Notes: generated by a model not told the origin, from the letters alone. A DNA stretch of 64,000 bases from Candidatus Bathyarchaeia archaeon (GCA_038870975.1 JAVZJD010000001.1:224001-288000); one strand, 5' to 3'; positions 58,501 to 64,000 are shown, counted from the first letter of the stretch. Translations and numbers: made by a program.

Positions 58501-60027
58501 TCAATCAGATAGCTCAGCCAATATTTTGAAACATTCCTTATAGTGTTCGTATATCTTCTGGTAGACTTTAAGTAATTTAGTGTACTTATCATGAACTTTT
58601 AAGTTGGGATTGTAAGTCTTAGATATTCTAACCATTTGATTTACAGCTGTTTTAAAGTCTACATGTGCTTTTACACCCACGCTGGCAAGTATGCATGATC
58701 CTAAAGCTGCAGCATCGAGTACTTCAGAAATTTGGATACTCATACCTAGGACGTCTGCCTTTATCTGATTCCATAAGTTGCTTTTAGCCTCACCGCCAGT
58801 CATAGTGATTCGCTTAACATCTACTCCAAGCTCTCTGACCAGCTGTAGGGTTTCAGAATATTGGAAAGCAACACCTTCGAGTATTGCCCTTATGAACTCG
58901 GATTTCCTATGAGCGTGTGTAAATCCTATGAATGCTGATCTAGCTAGAGGGTTGAATTTAGGAGCTCTAGCACCCCATAAATATGGATAGTAGAAGAGTC
59001 CTCCTGCCCCAAGAGGTACATTAGCCGCAATTTTATCGAAAAGTACGTAAGGAGATAGCCCTTCTTCCTTAGCCTTATGTACCTCCTCATAGCCGAAGTT
59101 ATCTCTAAACCATCTTAAGGATTCACCTGTTGCATTTATTATTATTTCATACTCCCATGTATCTGGTACGACGTGACAACAACAGTCAATCAAACCTTTA
59201 GAATCTGGCTTAGGTCTTGAGAGGGGCACTTCAAAAACTGTCCCAGTACCAGTACCTATGTTTACACTACCTTCTATATACACGCCTGCACCCAATGCTT
59301 CACAGGGACGGTCACCACCACCTGAAACAACTGGGACTCCAACTGGTAAACCAGTCTGCTCGGAGGCATTACTACTAACTTCACCTACAACCTCCCAAGA
59401 CCCCTTGACATCTGGAAGTATATCCATGGGTATTTCTAAGGATTCGCATATTTCGTCAGACCATTGAAGCTTATTTATGTCAAATAACATCGTCCGCGAC
59501 GCCATACTTCGGTCGGTGGTTTTTACTCCACATAGTTTAAAGATCACGTAGTCTTTGGCGAATAGGATAGAGTCTATTTTTTGGAATACATTTGGTAGAT
59601 TGTCCTTTATCCATAGAATTTTCGCGGCTGAGAAAATGTAGTCAATGGGAACCCCAGTTATTTTAAGGACCTTTTCCGGAGGGATCAGTTTTTCAATTTT
59701 ATCTTTTTGCGGAGTCGCCCTCATATCTAACCATATTATGCTATTGTAGAGTTTTTCTCCAGCTTTATCTATTGGGACAAACGCTTCTCTCTGAGATGTT
59801 AAACCGATACCTACTATCCTCTCAGATGGTATTTTAGAAGTAATCTGCTTTAAAGTGGATTGAGCGGCTTTCCACCATTCCTCAGGGTCCTGTTCGGCCC
59901 AGTTCATTTGGGGATGGTAGACTTGGTACTCTTTAAACGCTTCTGTAACAATATGTCCATTAATATCGAAGGCTACGACTTTACAGCCACCTGTACCGAT
60001 ATCTATTCCGATTAGAATTTCACTCAT
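58501..60027 (-). CDS. FGGY carbohydrate kinase (xylulokinase-like)
   Basis: GIDIGTGGCK, EQDPEEWW, IIWLDMR, D.SMASRT, GGGD, EGVA, GGEAKS..W. Confidence 0.92.
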   Translation of the reverse strand: MSEILIGIDIGTGGCKVVAFDINGHIVTEAFKEYQVYHPQMNWAEQDPEEWWKAAQSTLKQITSKIPSERIVGIGLTSQREAFVPIDKAGEKLYNSIIWLDMRATPQKDKIEKLIPPEKVLKITGVPIDYIFSAAKILWIKDNLPNVFQKIDSILFAKDYVIFKLCGVKTTDRSMASRTMLFDINKLQWSDEICESLEIPMDILPDVKGSWEVVGEVSSNASEQTGLPVGVPVVSGGGDRPCEALGAGVYIEGSVNIGTGTGTVFEVPLSRPKPDSKGLIDCCCHVVPDTWEYEIIINATGESLRWFRDNFGYEEVHKAKEEGLSPYVLFDKIAANVPLGAGGLFYYPYLWGARAPKFNPLARSAFIGFTHAHRKSEFIRAILEGVAFQYSETLQLVRELGVDVKRITMTGGEAKSNLWNQIKADVLGMSIQISEVLDAAALGSCILASVGVKAHVDFKTAVNQMVRISKTYNPNLKVHDKYTKLLKVYQKIYEHYKECFKILAELSD

Positions 60028-60097
60028 ACTATTCTGAATATCGAACTATGAGAAGATAAGACTTCGCCTCTTAAAATATGATGAGAGAGATGCTATA

Positions 60098-62122
60098 CTA
60101 ATCTTCAAAGTAGAGTATTTCAACATCATGCGAGTTAAGTGTAACTTTAACGGTTTCACCTTTTACATGTAGACCTCTGAGTAAGCTTTTAGCTTCCAAT
60201 ACTTTACCGAAGTCTAATTCTACAGTCTTACTTTTGGGATCATGGTTTATTAAGAATAGTAGACGATAGTCACGTCCTTCTTTAGAAACCAATTCAACAG
60301 GTTCTCCTCTGAGTTCGACTGGAGGTTTAACTAACCTTTCCTCAATGATTCTATCTGCTATAAGTTTAGATGCGTCTTGAGTCAGAAAGCAACCAATGTA
60401 TACAGCGTAACCCCTACCATAACGATTAAGTGTTATAGCTGGTCTACCCTTAAGCCATTCATATTCATGAACCCCCAGAACTTGGGCAGAAGTTACCGTT
60501 AACTCTTCCAGCCAACCTGAAACCGACGTTTGTCCATATTGAGTAGATACTTTCACCTCTATCTCAGGTGGTATAGATGTGTAATCTGTCACCCGTAGTC
60601 CGAATAGATCTTTAAGTTCGCCTGGAAGGCCGTTTGAGTATACACGGTTAAATTCATCTTTAACAGAAGTTCTAGCCGTTGCTATAAGCAAACCTCCGTT
60701 TTCCACGTAGTTTTTAAGTTTTTCTATTAGATTTTTATTCGTCAAATATAGGAATGGGGCTAGTAGTATACGGTAGTTTTTAAAATCATGGTCTGGAGAT
60801 ATTACGTCTACATTTACGCCATGATGCCAGAAGCCTTTATAGGCATTCAATGCTTGTTCATGGTAGCTTTTAGCATAGTACCTATTTTCAATTAATGTAG
60901 CCCAGAGAGAATCATATGAGAATATAAGTCCGACATCGCTTTTACATTTTGCATCGACTAGGATTTCACCAATCTTCTTTAGCTCTTCACCGGTTCTCTT
61001 TACTTCTAAGTACCTTCGGTTTATCTCACCATCATGGTTTAAAATACCATGCCAATACTGTTCTTTGCCAAAACACACGGTACGGTATCTGAAGTAGACT
61101 ACGCCTTCAGCTCCATGGGCAATTGCTTGGTAAAGCCATTTCCTTAACTCACCTGGGTCAGGTGTTACTCCTATTGGATGCCCAGCATAGCCATCAGTTG
61201 GTCCAGCCTGAAGCTCCATAACCCAAAAGCTCTCCATACCCATGCATCTAGTAGCATCGTGAAGCATGGATATCCAAGCAGGATCGTAATATGCTCTAGC
61301 AAACTTAGGGTAGCAATCCCATGAAGGAAAGTCTAGGTTTCTACTTAAATCGTAATAGTCCACGCCTGGAAAAAGCCCCATTAGATTCGTCGTCACCTTT
61401 TTATTAGGGCTTATAGATTTCAATATTCGTACCTGTATTTTAAGGAACTCTACAAAAGACTTTGACCTAAATCTAAACCAGTCTAAGCTTAGCCCTCTGT
61501 TACATTCATCGAAGGGTGGGGTTGGAGGATGTATTTCATCCCAATCTCCATACTCATGGCTCCAGAATATCGTTCCATATACTTTATTGAGTTCACTTAT
61601 AGATCCATACTTGTTTTTAAGCCAGTTTCTAAAGAGAGTAACACAGTGGTCACAGTAGCAGTATTCGTCGCCAAGGGAGAGCTCGTTATCTATCTGATAT
61701 CCTATGACGTCCGGATTATCCCTATAGTGTTTAGCCATAGCTTCCACAATTCTCTCAGAGGCTTTAATGTAGTTTGGATTATTGGGACAGTAGTGCCTCC
61801 TAGCAACAGGAGGCATTCTATGTCCTTGGAAATTTACAGGTAGGATGTCTGGATGGGCTTTTACAAGCCATGGTGGGGGAGCCGCAGTCGGAGTACCTAA
61901 TACTGCCTTAATACCCTTAGTGGAGAGAAGCTCTATAACTTCATCAAGCCATTGAAAGTTGAACTTGCCTGGTGAAGGCTCAAGTCTACACCATGCAAAC
62001 TCTGCAAGTCTAACCACGTTAAACCCAGCGCTACTGATAAGCTCGGCATCCAACCCTCTTCTCTCAATAGGCCAATGTTCAGGATAATAGTCTACACCAA
62101 ACCACAGTTTAATGCTACTCAT
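60098..62122 (-). CDS. GH42 beta-galactosidase family glycosidase
   Basis: GVDYYPEHW, AEFAW, PTAAPP.W, IDNE (acid/base), VMELQ (nucleophile), EQYWHG. ATG 62122 follows AAGGAG; alternative GTG 62158 overlaps the RuBisCO stop. Confidence 0.92.
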   Translation of the reverse strand: MSSIKLWFGVDYYPEHWPIERRGLDAELISSAGFNVVRLAEFAWCRLEPSPGKFNFQWLDEVIELLSTKGIKAVLGTPTAAPPPWLVKAHPDILPVNFQGHRMPPVARRHYCPNNPNYIKASERIVEAMAKHYRDNPDVIGYQIDNELSLGDEYCYCDHCVTLFRNWLKNKYGSISELNKVYGTIFWSHEYGDWDEIHPPTPPFDECNRGLSLDWFRFRSKSFVEFLKIQVRILKSISPNKKVTTNLMGLFPGVDYYDLSRNLDFPSWDCYPKFARAYYDPAWISMLHDATRCMGMESFWVMELQAGPTDGYAGHPIGVTPDPGELRKWLYQAIAHGAEGVVYFRYRTVCFGKEQYWHGILNHDGEINRRYLEVKRTGEELKKIGEILVDAKCKSDVGLIFSYDSLWATLIENRYYAKSYHEQALNAYKGFWHHGVNVDVISPDHDFKNYRILLAPFLYLTNKNLIEKLKNYVENGGLLIATARTSVKDEFNRVYSNGLPGELKDLFGLRVTDYTSIPPEIEVKVSTQYGQTSVSGWLEELTVTSAQVLGVHEYEWLKGRPAITLNRYGRGYAVYIGCFLTQDASKLIADRIIEERLVKPPVELRGEPVELVSKEGRDYRLLFLINHDPKSKTVELDFGKVLEAKSLLRGLHVKGETVKVTLNSHDVEILYFED

Positions 62123-62154
62123 AGAACCATAGCTCCTTGAGGGGGGATAAGTAG

Positions 62155-63501
62155 TCACTCTTCAGAGAGGAATTTCGTACCCCAATATTCTAAGGCTTCT
62201 CTTAATTCAATGTGCTCTTTAGCGTATTCTTCCAATGGGATGCCTTCCATAAATGCTTCCATAGCCTGCAACATGGCTGTTGCACCGATTCTAGTCCCCT
62301 TAGGATGCCCGTGAATTCCACCTCCAGCGTTCAACTGAATATCTGGAGAGCCTAACAGTTGTAGGTTTATCGGGACTAGGGCTGGATGTATTCCGCCTGA
62401 GGCGACGGGCAATACTGGTTTAAGATCATACCAATTGCTTCTTAGGAAGTCATTTATGTAACGGATCCCAGCAATGCCGGAGAATTTTTCAAACTGTTTC
62501 AAAGTGCCGCTACCAGGCTTTTCCATTTTACCTTTAGCTGTTCCAGTATGTAGCTGATCTCCACCAGCCAGCCTAACTAGTTTAGCCAATACAAGCATAT
62601 GAATACCGTGATCTGGGGTTCTAGTCATAGCAGCATGTAAACATCTATGAACATGAATTGGAACTTTAACAGAGGGGTCTTCTGCAAGCGCTCTTAAAAT
62701 GGGATAACCTGTGCAAAGTACGTCAACCATTATACAATTAGCACCATTATCAAGCGCTGTTTCAACGTTTTTCCATAGCATATCTAAATCCGCCGTAACG
62801 TCGACTGCGTACAGTACCGTTCTACCAGTTTCCTCTTTAACCTTATCGAGCATATCCATTACGTGTGAGACCCTCTCCTCCAAACGATTAAACTTTTGAC
62901 TTGTAAGCGTTTCATCGTCTTTTATAAAGTCAACGCCACCTATCGCCGCCTCATAAGCCACTTTAGCAGTTTCTTCGGGGCTAAGCCCTACTTTAGGCTT
63001 AATTATCGTACCTAGGTGGGGTCTTGGATTTCTATTAGTACCAATTATCTTCCTAACGCCTTCTATGCCAAACTTTGGTCCTTTAAACATCTTAACGTAC
63101 TGCTTGGGTAAATTCACATCCAGTAGTCTTACGCTTTTCAAAGCACCTATTCCGAAAAGGTTGCCAGCTATTATTGAAAGCATATGTGAAATCCCAGCTT
63201 CCAAATCGAATAGGTCCAGAGGGAAGGCTACTTGCACCAGCCCTCCGCCGTTCAACTTATCCACGTGAAATACTTTACCCGCCAGCTTCAACACTCTATC
63301 GGTTATTGTTACAACTTTAGTCCATGTTCCTATCGACTGTTCAGCCGCAAGGTTTATTGCAGCGCCTTGAAGGTTGACTCCTTCCTTTGGAGTCATATAG
63401 TATAGACATGTAACATAACGGTCTGGGTCTATCTCTTCAACACTAGCTGTAAACGTCTTTATCCAAAATTCCTCTTCAAACCACTCCTTTAGCGCACTCA
63501 T
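62155..63501 (-). CDS. rbcL: RuBisCO large subunit, Form III-like, catalytic residues intact
   Basis: AAEQSIGTWT, AGNLFG, KPK, DFIKDDE, HRCLH, QLHTGT, GKM (loop-6 Lys), ASGG, GGGIHGHP. Confidence 0.92.
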   Translation of the reverse strand: MSALKEWFEEEFWIKTFTASVEEIDPDRYVTCLYYMTPKEGVNLQGAAINLAAEQSIGTWTKVVTITDRVLKLAGKVFHVDKLNGGGLVQVAFPLDLFDLEAGISHMLSIIAGNLFGIGALKSVRLLDVNLPKQYVKMFKGPKFGIEGVRKIIGTNRNPRPHLGTIIKPKVGLSPEETAKVAYEAAIGGVDFIKDDETLTSQKFNRLEERVSHVMDMLDKVKEETGRTVLYAVDVTADLDMLWKNVETALDNGANCIMVDVLCTGYPILRALAEDPSVKVPIHVHRCLHAAMTRTPDHGIHMLVLAKLVRLAGGDQLHTGTAKGKMEKPGSGTLKQFEKFSGIAGIRYINDFLRSNWYDLKPVLPVASGGIHPALVPINLQLLGSPDIQLNAGGGIHGHPKGTRIGATAMLQAMEAFMEGIPLEEYAKEHIELREALEYWGTKFLSEE

Positions 63502-63861
63502 GAAAAATAGACACCCATTTAAGAGTCAGAATAGTTGAAAATAAAAACCTAATTGTTCATTTCCATTACACAGTCCTTGCTGCAAACAGTTGAGTTTATT
63601 AGAAGTATCCCCATGATTGATTCTTCCATAGTTGCAGGAATATGCCAACTTTATCCAATTTAAGACGATATAACATTGCCTTTGGTTTAAGATTAAATGC
63701 TGAATACAGTGTCTAAATGCTTGTGTAAGATCGGTCTTGAGTATGTATTGTCAAACGATAACCTAGAGTCATTCAGAATACGTATGAAGATGTAGATTTT
63801 ACTGAAGGAAAGGAAAATGATTAATTTTTAAACAGAGACAACTATTTAGAGGAGTTTAACT

Positions 63862-64000
63862 ATGAGGTATTTCTTAGGTTTAGATATAGGTACTAAAAAT
63901 ATTAAAGCAGCCATTTTGAATGACGAAGGCAAAGTAGAAGAAGATGCTTTAACACCAGTTTACGACCTTATACATCAGCCCAGAGATGGGTTCGTGGAGC
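63862..64000 (+). CDS. FGGY carbohydrate kinase, N-terminal fragment (runs off the window)
   Basis: MRYFLGLDIGTKNIKAAILNDEG...QPRDGFVE; GAGGAG RBS. Confidence 0.8.
   Translation, partial: MRYFLGLDIGTKNIKAAILNDEGKVEEDALTPVYDLIHQPRDGFVE

What the first reader, a model, noticed from the sequence alone, without database searches (positions are those of the whole stretch)
58501..64000. Catalytically intact Form III RuBisCO heading a sugar-catabolic gene cluster: candidate sugar-to-RuBP pathway
Seen: rbcL, a GH42 glycosidase and an FGGY kinase are co-oriented with gaps of at most 32 and 70 bp, and a second FGGY kinase starts divergently. The RuBisCO keeps equivalents of E60, T65, N123, K175, K177, K201, D203, E204, H294, R295, H327, K334, S379, G381 and G403/404, so it does not look like a Form IV RLP. 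Known: archaeal Form III enzymes are normally fed by AMP phosphorylase plus R15P isomerase, or by phosphoribulokinase; neither is in this window. RuBisCO-family genes in sugar loci are usually Form IV RLPs (apiose/hamamelose catabolism). Inference: glycoside-derived sugar is routed to RuBP, for example by an FGGY kinase phosphorylating C5 of ribulose or ribulose-1-phosphate, giving a carboxylating heterotrophic pathway. Alternatively, a Form III enzyme has been recruited for branched-sugar (trans)carboxylation.
Basis: partly seen in the sequence, partly recalled or inferred. Interest (0 to 1): 0.82.

Follow-up and report, generated by a model that had tools for sequence, protein, structure and literature searches.

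The report
Archaeal RuBisCO paired with sugar kinase
A hot-spring Bathyarchaeia archaeon keeps its only, fully intact RuBisCO next to sugar genes; the partner conserved across distant archaea is an unstudied sugar-type kinase (usually with an aldolase), which hints at an undescribed way of feeding sugar carbon into RuBisCO alongside the usual nucleotide route.

Summary
On the minus strand, rbcL (62155-63501), a GH42 beta-galactosidase-type gene and an FGGY kinase follow each other; a second FGGY kinase (FGGY2) starts divergently at 63862. All 17 catalytic residues checked in RbcL are intact, and its best matches are Form III enzymes.

- Against: this is the genome's only rbcL. AMP phosphorylase and R15P isomerase are present elsewhere, so the standard supply route is complete. 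The GH42 and XylB-like kinase linkage is confined to one genus.
- For: FGGY2 belongs to a distinct subfamily, found here only in archaeal or unnamed metagenome records.
  - Its members lie within 5 kb of RuBisCO-family genes in 10 of 31 lineages.
  - These cover three clades of intact RuBisCO and one RuBisCO-like clade, in divergent or convergent order.
  - An aldolase is often alongside; in two loci its best match is ribulose-1-phosphate aldolase.
- The family lacks transketolase, ribulose-phosphate epimerase and phosphoribulokinase, so pentulose phosphates have no classical exit.

Best reading (about 45%): FGGY2 makes RuBP or its direct precursor. No biochemistry exists, and no paper in the held library links FGGY kinases to RuBisCO. 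This scan noted the same pairing earlier on other DNA (e1-1405380, e1-5417265).

The parts
62155..63501 (-). rbcL: Form III-type RuBisCO large subunit, 448 aa, the only RuBisCO-family gene in the genome
   Evidence: Pfam PF00016 and PF02788. Best NCBIfam hit is TIGR03326 rubisco_III, 446.7 bits, under its cut-off of 497. Best solved structures are Form III enzymes 2cwx, 8dht, 6hun and 1geh. All 17 catalytic residues are present. Single copy.
60098..62158 (-). GH42 glycosidase (beta-galactosidase type); the likely true start is ATG 62122, 32 bp after the rbcL stop
   Evidence: Pfam Glyco_hydro_42, 42M and 42C. PDB best hits are GH42 beta-galactosidases, 414 bits. AAGGAG lies before ATG 62122. 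Linked to rbcL only in genus g1.
58501..60027 (-). FGGY1: XylB-like pentulose kinase, 508 aa
   Evidence: TIGR01312 XylB, 390.3 bits against a cut-off of 380.25. Best PDB hit is E. coli xylulokinase 2itm. A TATA-like ATATTTTAA lies in the 70-bp gap upstream. No RPE or transketolase was found in the lineage to use xylulose-5-P.
63502..63861 (.). Divergent intergenic region between rbcL and FGGY2, with A/T-rich TATA-like boxes facing each gene
   Evidence: Sequence reading: TTTTTAAA lies about 35 bp before the FGGY2 ATG, followed by a GAGGAG ribosome-binding-like site. A/T-rich boxes lie 20-45 bp before the rbcL ATG. Not tested experimentally.
63862..64000 (+). 5' end of FGGY2 (482 aa in full, L007:7862-9310 = G000:C1:287862-289310), the conserved RuBisCO-associated kinase
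   Evidence: FGGY_N and FGGY_C. XylB model scores only 249.5 bits against a cut-off of 380. Nearest structures are 3ifr and 2itm at about 132 bits. All named homologues are archaeal. Adjacent to RuBisCO-family genes in 10 of 31 lineages.

Best explanation
Shown:
- The rbcL gene encodes a catalytically complete Form III-type RuBisCO. It is the only one in this Bathyarchaeia genome, which also encodes AMP phosphorylase and R15P isomerase.
- The genome family lacks transketolase, ribulose-phosphate 3-epimerase and phosphoribulokinase. It makes pentoses through a Fae-HPS (reverse RuMP) enzyme.

Inferred:
- RuBisCO is the gateway by which five-carbon sugar skeletons reach glycolysis, and it has two feeds.
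- One feed is the standard nucleotide route: AMP to R15P to RuBP.
- The other is a sugar branch defined by the divergent kinase FGGY2, which is normally accompanied by an aldolase. That aldolase is either class II FucA/Ru1P-aldolase-like or class I DeoC/LacD-like.
- In this branch a pentulose is phosphorylated by FGGY2 to give RuBP or its immediate precursor. The pentulose would be either D-ribulose 1-phosphate, made by a 1-kinase or by the aldolase from DHAP and glycolaldehyde, or D-ribulose 5-phosphate, made by the XylB-like FGGY1.
- RuBisCO then carboxylates RuBP to two 3-phosphoglycerate.
- GH42 and FGGY1 are a genus-specific add-on that brings glycoside-derived sugar to this node.
For: - RbcL is intact and of Form III type.
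- FGGY2 is a separate FGGY subfamily; every named record is archaeal.
- Across genome and metagenome loci, FGGY2-family genes lie within 5 kb of a RuBisCO-family gene in 10 of 31 lineages defined at 80% identity, and in 6 of the 14 with at least 2.5 kb on both sides.
- The linked RuBisCOs fall in four clades. Three of them, at 73-100%, 58-61% and 41-42% identity to this RbcL, keep all 17 catalytic residues.
- The arrangement varies: divergent with 46-361 bp between the genes in most loci (712 bp and 2.7 kb in two genus members), convergent with 3-377 bp, or 1-3.4 kb apart. Linkage has therefore survived rearrangement.
- By simple arithmetic, a random gene would lie within 5 kb of a single-copy gene in well under 1% of cases.
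- Aldolases of two unrelated folds sit beside FGGY2 in 8 of 31 lineages. Those in L056 and L093 score best against the haloarchaeal ribulose-1-phosphate aldolase model, at 158-160 bits and below its cut-off.
- A second FGGY kinase recurs nearby: XylB-like in genus g1 and L093, rhamnulokinase-like in L056. This fits two successive phosphorylations.
- No PRK, transketolase or true RPE was found in any of the 8 genomes of the family. Fae-HPS is present.
- Ru1P and RuBP are interconverted in a proven archaeal pathway (PMC9700705).
Against: - No enzyme assay or expression data exist.
- AMP phosphorylase and R15P isomerase are present here and in nearly all FGGY2-bearing genomes tested, so RuBisCO needs no new feed.
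- About two thirds of FGGY2 lineages show no RuBisCO within the flanks available. The closest outside relative (G291, 75% identical) has rbcL on another contig.
- To my knowledge, no FGGY kinase is known to act on a sugar phosphate.
- In this genome a rearrangement has moved the HAD, cyclase, DeoC-aldolase and DUF6785 block that follows FGGY2 in sister species to a site 140 kb away.
- Genome-level co-occurrence is weak evidence: 4 of 4 genera with FGGY2 have RuBisCO, against a base rate of 79 of 161.
- FGGY1 passes the XylB cut-off.
Confidence: 0.45

Rival explanations
1. Standard pathway only. RbcL works solely in the AMP/pentose bisphosphate pathway (AMP phosphorylase, R15P isomerase). The neighbouring kinases are ordinary pentulose kinases. 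Any link is indirect: pentulose-5-P to R5P to PRPP to AMP to R15P to RuBP, or merely co-regulation within a carbohydrate island.
For: AMP phosphorylase and R15P isomerase score over their cut-offs in this genome and in G291 and G401-G403; G392 has the isomerase only. There is only one rbcL. This is the published reading for hot-spring Bathyarchaeia (PMC8407382). FGGY1 scores as XylB. The GH42/FGGY1 linkage is genus-only. In the sister genus rbcL also lies among sugar genes but without FGGY2.
Against: It does not explain why one particular FGGY subfamily, and not the six other FGGY paralogues of this genome, is next to RuBisCO in four RuBisCO clades and in several gene orders. It also does not explain why aldolases of two folds travel with it.
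Confidence: 0.28
2. FGGY2 is a non-orthologous ribose-1-phosphate 5-kinase. It would convert R1P from nucleoside phosphorylases to R15P, the step done by PfkB-type kinases in Thermococcus and haloarchaea, and so feed RuBisCO through R15P isomerase.
For: Every FGGY2-bearing genome tested has R15P isomerase. The genome has two PNP/UDP-type nucleoside phosphorylases. R1P kinase is a defined step of the known pathway (PMC9700705).
Against: Five PfkB-family kinases are present, so there is no obvious gap to fill. The recurrent aldolase and second FGGY kinase are not explained. FGGY kinases are known for acyclic or ketose substrates (my knowledge).
Confidence: 0.1
3. FGGY2 plus aldolase is a FucK/FucA-like ketose 1-kinase and aldolase pair, acting on D-ribulose/D-arabinose or a deoxy-sugar. 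It yields DHAP plus an aldehyde. It meets RuBisCO only through the shared intermediate Ru1P, that is, a non-carboxylating branch as in haloarchaea, or not at all.
For: Kinase-aldolase pairing occurs in 8 of 31 lineages. L056 carries a FucI-like isomerase, a rhamnulokinase-like kinase and a class II aldolase. A HAD_2 phosphatase follows FGGY2 in sister species. The haloarchaeal pathway runs RuBP to Ru1P to DHAP plus glycolaldehyde.
Against: The HAD_2 protein scores only 60 bits against the RuBP 5-phosphatase model and scores better against PGP/PpaX models. RuBisCO adjacency is more frequent than aldolase adjacency. The RuBisCOs keep both phosphate-binding sites.
Confidence: 0.12
4. The RuBisCO has been recruited for a non-RuBP reaction, such as branched-sugar (trans)carboxylation or an RLP-type isomerisation.
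For: One FGGY2 clade is linked to a RuBisCO-like protein that lacks R295, H327, K334, S379 and G380. OiaX and MtnW models give weak secondary hits.
Against: All 17 carboxylase residues are intact here and in three linked clades. Form III models and structures are by far the best matches. No apiose- or tetronate-pathway genes are nearby.
Confidence: 0.05

Closest known systems
Archaeal AMP / pentose bisphosphate pathway (Thermococcus kodakarensis: AMP phosphorylase, R15P isomerase, Form III RuBisCO; Sato 2007, Aono 2015 as cited in PMC9700705 and PMC8407382)
   Same: A Form III-type RuBisCO with all catalytic residues. AMP phosphorylase and R15P isomerase are both encoded in the genome. There is no PRK. 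[quoted passage not shown]
   Different: rbcL is not next to its nucleotide-pathway partners. It lies next to a glycosidase and two FGGY kinases, and one of those kinases (FGGY2) is a conserved neighbour across distant archaea. No FGGY kinase or aldolase is part of the described pathway.
Non-carboxylating pentose bisphosphate pathway of haloarchaea (RuBP 5-phosphatase HAD, Ru1P aldolase FucA; PMC9700705)
   Same: The neighbourhoods of FGGY2-family genes contain class II aldolases whose best model in two loci is the Ru1P aldolase, and in sister species a HAD phosphatase. This points to Ru1P/RuBP chemistry.
   Different: Here RuBisCO is present and intact. All scores are far below the haloarchaeal models' cut-offs. 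A kinase is present that would run Ru1P towards RuBP rather than away from it.
PRK-dependent RuBisCO pathways (CBB cycle; reductive hexulose phosphate pathway of methanogens, PMC5241800)
   Same: In the proposed mechanism, a dedicated kinase sits next to RuBisCO and would supply RuBP from a pentulose phosphate.
   Different: No PRK-family gene was found. The kinase has the FGGY (actin-like ATPase) fold, unrelated to the P-loop fold of PRK. The context is heterotrophic sugar catabolism, not autotrophy.
E. coli L-fucose/D-arabinose route (FucI, FucK, FucA) and xylulokinase XylB
   Same: FGGY kinases combined with a class II aldolase and, in L056, a FucI-like isomerase. FGGY1 passes the XylB model.
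   Different: FGGY2 fails the XylB, FucK, RhaB and AraB models. There is no RPE or transketolase to use xylulose-5-P. RuBisCO is a neighbour.

Membership tests
Form III RuBisCO | RuBisCO large-subunit N- and C-terminal domains | tested here: met
   PF02788 at 107 bits and PF00016 at 265 bits.
Form III RuBisCO | Complete set of carboxylase active-site residues, including the carbamylated Lys, loop-6 Lys and both phosphate sites | tested here: met
   17 of 17 checked positions are conserved. The alignment to 2cwx and 8dht shows the same motifs.
Form III RuBisCO | Scores as Form III rather than I, II or IV | tested here: inconclusive
   TIGR03326 is the best model at 446.7 bits, but this is below its cut-off of 497.45. 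The seven best solved structures are archaeal Form III enzymes. No reference phylogeny with named IIIa, IIIb and IV sequences was built.
Form III RuBisCO | RuBP carboxylase activity | not testable with these tools
   Needs an enzyme assay.
Form IV RuBisCO-like protein | Loss of several carboxylase residues | tested here: not met
   None is lost here. By contrast, the RLPs in L114, L117 and L122 carry R295P, H327L, K334S, S379A and G380A.
Archaeal AMP / pentose bisphosphate pathway | AMP phosphorylase and R15P isomerase in the same genome as RuBisCO | tested here: met
   TIGR03327 at 619.6 bits (cut-off 535) at C1:380145-381626. TIGR00511 at 405.4 bits (cut-off 314.1) at C2:667109-668020.
PRK-dependent CBB or RHP pathway | Phosphoribulokinase (PF00485) | tested here: not met
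   No match in the own genome or in any of the 8 genomes of the family. The genome is 92.9% complete.
Xylulokinase XylB (FGGY1, 58501-60027) | Score over the TIGR01312 cut-off | tested here: met
   390.3 bits against a cut-off of 380.25.
Xylulokinase XylB (FGGY1, 58501-60027) | Downstream enzymes for xylulose-5-P (RPE, transketolase) | tested here: not met
   No Transketolase_N match. The only RPE hits are about 25-bit cross-hits to the Fae-HPS fusion.
Xylulokinase XylB (FGGY2) | Score over the TIGR01312 cut-off | tested here: not met
   249.5 bits against a cut-off of 380.25. All other FGGY equivalog models are also far below their cut-offs.
Non-carboxylating pentose bisphosphate pathway | Ru1P aldolase (NF053831) and RuBP 5-phosphatase (NF053830) | tested here: inconclusive
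   The aldolases beside FGGY2 and RbcL in L056 and L093 have NF053831 as best model, at 158-160 bits against a cut-off of 300. HAD_2 of the sister species scores 60 bits on NF053830 against a cut-off of 330. The own genome's class II aldolase (C1:153322-153996) is unlinked and scores best on other models.

The most novel reading that the evidence does not exclude
FGGY2 is the founding member of a RuBisCO-dedicated kinase family that makes ribulose-1,5-bisphosphate without phosphoribulokinase or R15P isomerase. It would act as a Ru1P 5-kinase or a Ru5P 1-kinase on an actin-fold scaffold. Together with an aldolase this would give archaea a carboxylating route from free pentuloses, or from DHAP plus glycolaldehyde, to two 3-phosphoglycerate.
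Probability: 0.33. Interest if true: 0.85.

Novelty: new variant of a known kind. Interest (0 to 1): 0.62.

Why it matters
Known routes to RuBP use either phosphoribulokinase or the AMP phosphorylase/R15P isomerase pair. A third, FGGY-based supply would change how Form III RuBisCOs in heterotrophic archaea (Bathyarchaeia and other Thermoproteota, perhaps Asgard) are read. [quoted passage not shown] It would also provide a natural Ru1P-to-RuBP or Ru5P-to-RuBP kinase of interest for engineered glycolaldehyde or photorespiratory bypasses. The question is directly testable with two recombinant proteins.

Tried and rejected
1. A loop-6 insertion in RbcL, raised by earlier notes. The alignment to 8dht is ungapped there and the T. 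kodakarensis enzymes match over the same span; only P. horikoshii 2cwx is 13 residues shorter. It is not a special feature.
2. An RLP or branched-sugar role. Rejected because all catalytic residues are intact and no apiose- or tetronate-pathway genes are nearby.
3. PRK. Not found.
4. GH42/FGGY1 as the conserved partners. Rejected: the linkage is absent outside the genus. The sister genus has two amidohydrolases and other genes between rbcL and a xylB homologue, and other families have unrelated neighbours.
5. Genome-level co-occurrence of FGGY2 with RuBisCO. All 10 FGGY2 genomes have RuBisCO, but they represent only 4 genera against a 49% base rate, so this is not informative.
6. Using R15P isomerase or AMP phosphorylase presence to separate the hypotheses. 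Uninformative, because nearly all FGGY2 genomes have both.
7. Rfam scan of the window: no hits.
8. Protein atlas for FGGY2: only generic carbohydrate-kinase clusters.
The contexts of the Asgard, Brockarchaeota and other homologues listed could therefore not be examined one by one; a metagenome scan was used instead.
10. The sigma-70 promoter and terminator scan was not used, because it does not apply to archaea.
11. No structure was predicted. Model coordinates cannot be inspected here, so a pocket analysis would not have been possible.


Full report
**What is there.** The window is G000:C1:224001-288000 of a 1.85-Mb, two-contig genome that is 92.9% complete. Sister genomes found by sequence are public MAGs titled Candidatus Bathyarchaeia, several from hot springs. 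On the minus strand lie three genes:
- rbcL, 62155-63501, 448 aa;
- a GH42 glycosidase, 60098-62158;
- an FGGY kinase, here called FGGY1, 58501-60027.

The GH42 frame opens at a GTG that overlaps the rbcL stop. An ATG at 62122 preceded by AAGGAG is the more likely start and gives a 32-bp gap. The gap to FGGY1 is 70 bp and contains a TATA-like ATATTTTAA, so FGGY1 may have its own promoter.

A divergent ORF begins at 63862. Read beyond the window (L007), it is a 482-aa FGGY kinase, here FGGY2. It is followed by a HAD-IB phosphatase, an RNase J-like gene, argG, argH and a GH3 glycosidase. The 360-bp divergent spacer has A/T-rich TATA-like boxes facing both genes. Rfam finds nothing in the window.

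**The RuBisCO.**
- The best NCBIfam model is type III RuBisCO at 446.7 bits, somewhat under its cut-off of 497. MtnW and OiaX RLP models score far lower.
- The best solved structures are archaeal Form III enzymes: 2cwx, 8dht, 6hun and the T. kodakarensis entries.
- All 17 catalytic positions I checked are conserved.
- An insertion after loop 6, suggested in earlier notes, is not special. The alignment to 8dht is ungapped there; only the P. horikoshii enzyme is shorter.
- It is the only RuBisCO-family gene in the genome.

**The standard partners exist.** AMP phosphorylase (619.6 bits against a cut-off of 535, C1:380145-381626) and R15P isomerase (405.4 bits against 314.1, C2:667109-668020) are both present and uninterrupted. 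PRK was not found. This is the published reading for hot-spring Bathyarchaeia: Form III, AMP metabolism, no PRK (PMC8407382).

**Which linkage is conserved?**
- In five other species of the genus (RbcL 87-91% identical), four keep the whole rbcL-GH42-FGGY1 string with the divergent FGGY2. The fifth has rbcL and FGGY2 on short separate contigs.
- In the sister genus, rbcL (76% identical) is followed by two Amidohydro_2 genes and others. A xylB homologue lies 4.6 kb downstream, with no GH42 and no FGGY2. A rhamnogalacturonan-lyase-like gene lies upstream.
- In another family of the order, rbcL lies between rpoB and an ADP-ribosylglycohydrolase.
- The GTDB class has only 17 species. RuBisCO is present in 15 of the 16 others, but FGGY2 only in the genus.

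GH42 and FGGY1 are therefore a genus-level feature.

**FGGY2 is the conserved partner.** FGGY2 fails every FGGY equivalog model: XylB scores 249 bits against a cut-off of 380. Its nearest structures are an uncharacterised FGGY kinase (3ifr) and E. coli XylB, at about 132 bits. A search of 5.8 billion proteins gave about 60 clusters at 39% identity or more. Every record that carries an organism name is archaeal: Bathyarchaeia, Thermoprotei, MAGs labelled Nitrososphaeria, Brockarchaeota, Aigarchaeota and several Asgard groups. In a 401-genome sample of the phylum, the family occurs in 10 genomes from 4 genera.

Scans of the GTDB genomes and, with a family alignment (A1), of JGI metagenomes gave 69 loci falling in 31 lineages at 80% identity. 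A RuBisCO-family gene lies within 5 kb in 10 of the 31, and in 6 of the 14 with at least 2.5 kb on both flanks. For a single-copy gene in a genome of about 1,900 genes, chance adjacency would be well under 1% (my arithmetic).

The arrangements differ:
- divergent, 46-361 bp apart in most loci (712 bp and 2.7 kb in two genus members): the genus, L087, L056-L058, L091, L093, L094;
- convergent, 3-377 bp apart: L085, L102, L119;
- 1-3.4 kb apart: L096, L109, L114, L117, L122.

**Trees.** Quick maximum-likelihood trees (SH-aLRT support only, several long branches) place the linked RuBisCOs in four clades:
- A: the window's own clade, 73-100% identity;
- B: 58-61% identity;
- C: 41-42% identity;
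- D: a RuBisCO-like protein carrying R295P, H327L, K334S, S379A and G380A.

Clades A to C keep all 17 catalytic residues. The kinase tree broadly mirrors this, with at least one mismatch: the L085 kinase groups with clade-B partners while its RbcL is in clade A. The pairing is therefore old and has survived rearrangement, although many FGGY2 lineages are unlinked. The closest outside relative (G291) has FGGY2 at 75% and RbcL at 76% identity, on different contigs.

**Other recurrent neighbours.**
- An aldolase lies within 5 kb of FGGY2 in 8 of 31 lineages, and it comes in two unrelated folds.
  - Class II (FucA-like) occurs in L056, L057/L058, L093 and the clade-D loci.
  - Class I DeoC/LacD (ADH-synthase/FbaB-like) occurs in the sister species, L084 and L087.
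- The class II aldolases beside RbcL in L056 and L093 score best on the haloarchaeal ribulose-1-phosphate aldolase model, at 158-160 bits against a cut-off of 300.
- A second FGGY kinase is nearby in the genus (XylB-like), L093 (two XylB-like), L056 (rhamnulokinase-like, next to a FucI-like isomerase) and the clade-D loci.
- In sister species FGGY2 is followed by a HAD_2 phosphatase (best models PpaX/PGP; 60 bits on RuBP 5-phosphatase), a cyclase-family gene, the DeoC-type aldolase and a DUF6785 gene. In this genome that block lies 140 kb away at C1:428176-432900, so a rearrangement has cut the cluster just after FGGY2.
- Class III aminotransferase and DAPDH-like genes accompany some clade A and B loci.

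**Metabolic context.**
- No Transketolase_N match occurs in any of the 8 genomes of the family.
- The only RPE hits are about 25-bit cross-hits to a Fae-HPS fusion (NF009833, 566 bits); a true RPE elsewhere in the class scores 197.
- The single transaldolase-family hit is a 40-bit partial match in a 724-aa frame with no NCBIfam assignment.
- The literature states that archaea without this pathway use the RuBisCO-containing pentose bisphosphate pathway for ribose carbon. It also shows RuBP to Ru1P to DHAP plus glycolaldehyde in haloarchaea, through a HAD phosphatase and a FucA-type aldolase (PMC9700705).
- The genome has seven FGGY paralogues, two nucleoside phosphorylases and five PfkB kinases. 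An R1P-kinase gap is therefore not evident.

**Interpretation.** Shown: an intact Form III-type RuBisCO, a complete standard supply route elsewhere in the genome, and a conserved genomic association with one FGGY subfamily and with aldolases.

Inferred: RuBisCO is the gateway for five-carbon skeletons, and FGGY2 provides a second, sugar-derived feed. Most simply, FGGY2 would phosphorylate Ru1P at C5 or Ru5P at C1 to give RuBP, with GH42 and FGGY1 as a genus-specific front end. I put this at about 45%.

Rivals:
- only an indirect link through PRPP and AMP (about 28%);
- a FucK/FucA-like pair that meets RuBisCO only through Ru1P (about 12%);
- an R1P kinase analogue (about 10%);
- a non-RuBP reaction (about 5%).

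**Literature and earlier notes.** Searches for FGGY with RuBisCO, for Bathyarchaeia with RuBisCO and xylulokinase, and for ribulose-1-phosphate with glycolaldehyde and Rubisco returned nothing that describes this pairing. Earlier notes of this scan reported similar pairings on other DNA.

Noticed in passing
G000:C2:~729438-730524 (L005:963-2049): The second e2b2-family (MtnA/aIF-2B-like) gene is broken between ...LTHC and NAGALATTGYGTAL by a 19-nt insert containing the palindrome GGCTTAAGCC. Removing it restores the reading frame and the THCNAG motif. It is probably another tRNA-type (BHB) mini-intron of this genome.
   Followed up: partly
G000:C1:428176-432900 versus L083:9543-13912: The HAD_2, cyclase, DeoC/LacD-aldolase and DUF6785 block that follows FGGY2 in sister species lies 140 kb away in this genome. 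A rearrangement breakpoint therefore sits immediately downstream of FGGY2.
   Followed up: partly
whole genome G000 (for example C1:428176-430182): About 25 paralogues of a 650-680-aa DUF6785/DUF6784 protein are scattered over the genome. One lies in the FGGY2 cluster of sister species, and in G002 it lies between rbcL and FGGY2. This may be a transporter-like family expanded for sugar uptake.
   Followed up: no
L114, L117, L122 (metagenome contigs): An FGGY2-like kinase, a class II aldolase and a RuBisCO-like protein (R295P, H327L, K334S, S379A, G380A) lie together with another FGGY kinase; the adjacent genes include a 2-oxoacid dehydrogenase E2 (the two genes next to it were not annotated). 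This is an RLP module related to the kinase family studied here.
   Followed up: partly
L102:2506-2787, L119:1461-1733: An HPr-family phosphocarrier gene (98 bits in L102) sits between the FGGY2-like kinase and an intact, divergent RuBisCO (41% identity) in clade C loci.
   Followed up: no
L039:9520-10863 (G010): In another family of the order, rbcL lies next to an ADP-ribosylglycohydrolase, ThuA and a GFO/IDH/MocA oxidoreductase, beside rpoB. This may be a link between ADP-ribose and RuBisCO.
   Followed up: no
G000:C2:19085-20311 (L140:5085-6311): A Fae-HPS fusion (NF009833, 566 bits) is present, while transketolase and a true RPE were not found in any genome of the family. Pentoses are probably made by the reverse RuMP route.
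   Followed up: yes
G401:C12:202101-203011: In the genome of L057, the only R15P isomerase-like gene of high combined score is split in two pieces with a TAG between them (203 and 190 bits). That genome also has a second, divergent RuBisCO-family gene on C10.
   Followed up: no
L057:12465-14800, L091:9465-11562, L085:10929-12284: A class III aminotransferase, with a 2,4-diaminopentanoate-dehydrogenase-like gene in two of the three loci, lies next to the FGGY2-RuBisCO pair. This echoes the kinase-aminotransferase-RLP modules noted earlier in this scan.
   Followed up: no
L037:6321-11253 (G007): In the sister genus, rbcL is flanked by a rhamnogalacturonan-lyase-like beta-propeller protein and two Amidohydro_2 (lactonase-type) genes. 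There too, rbcL lies in a carbohydrate island without FGGY2.
   Followed up: no
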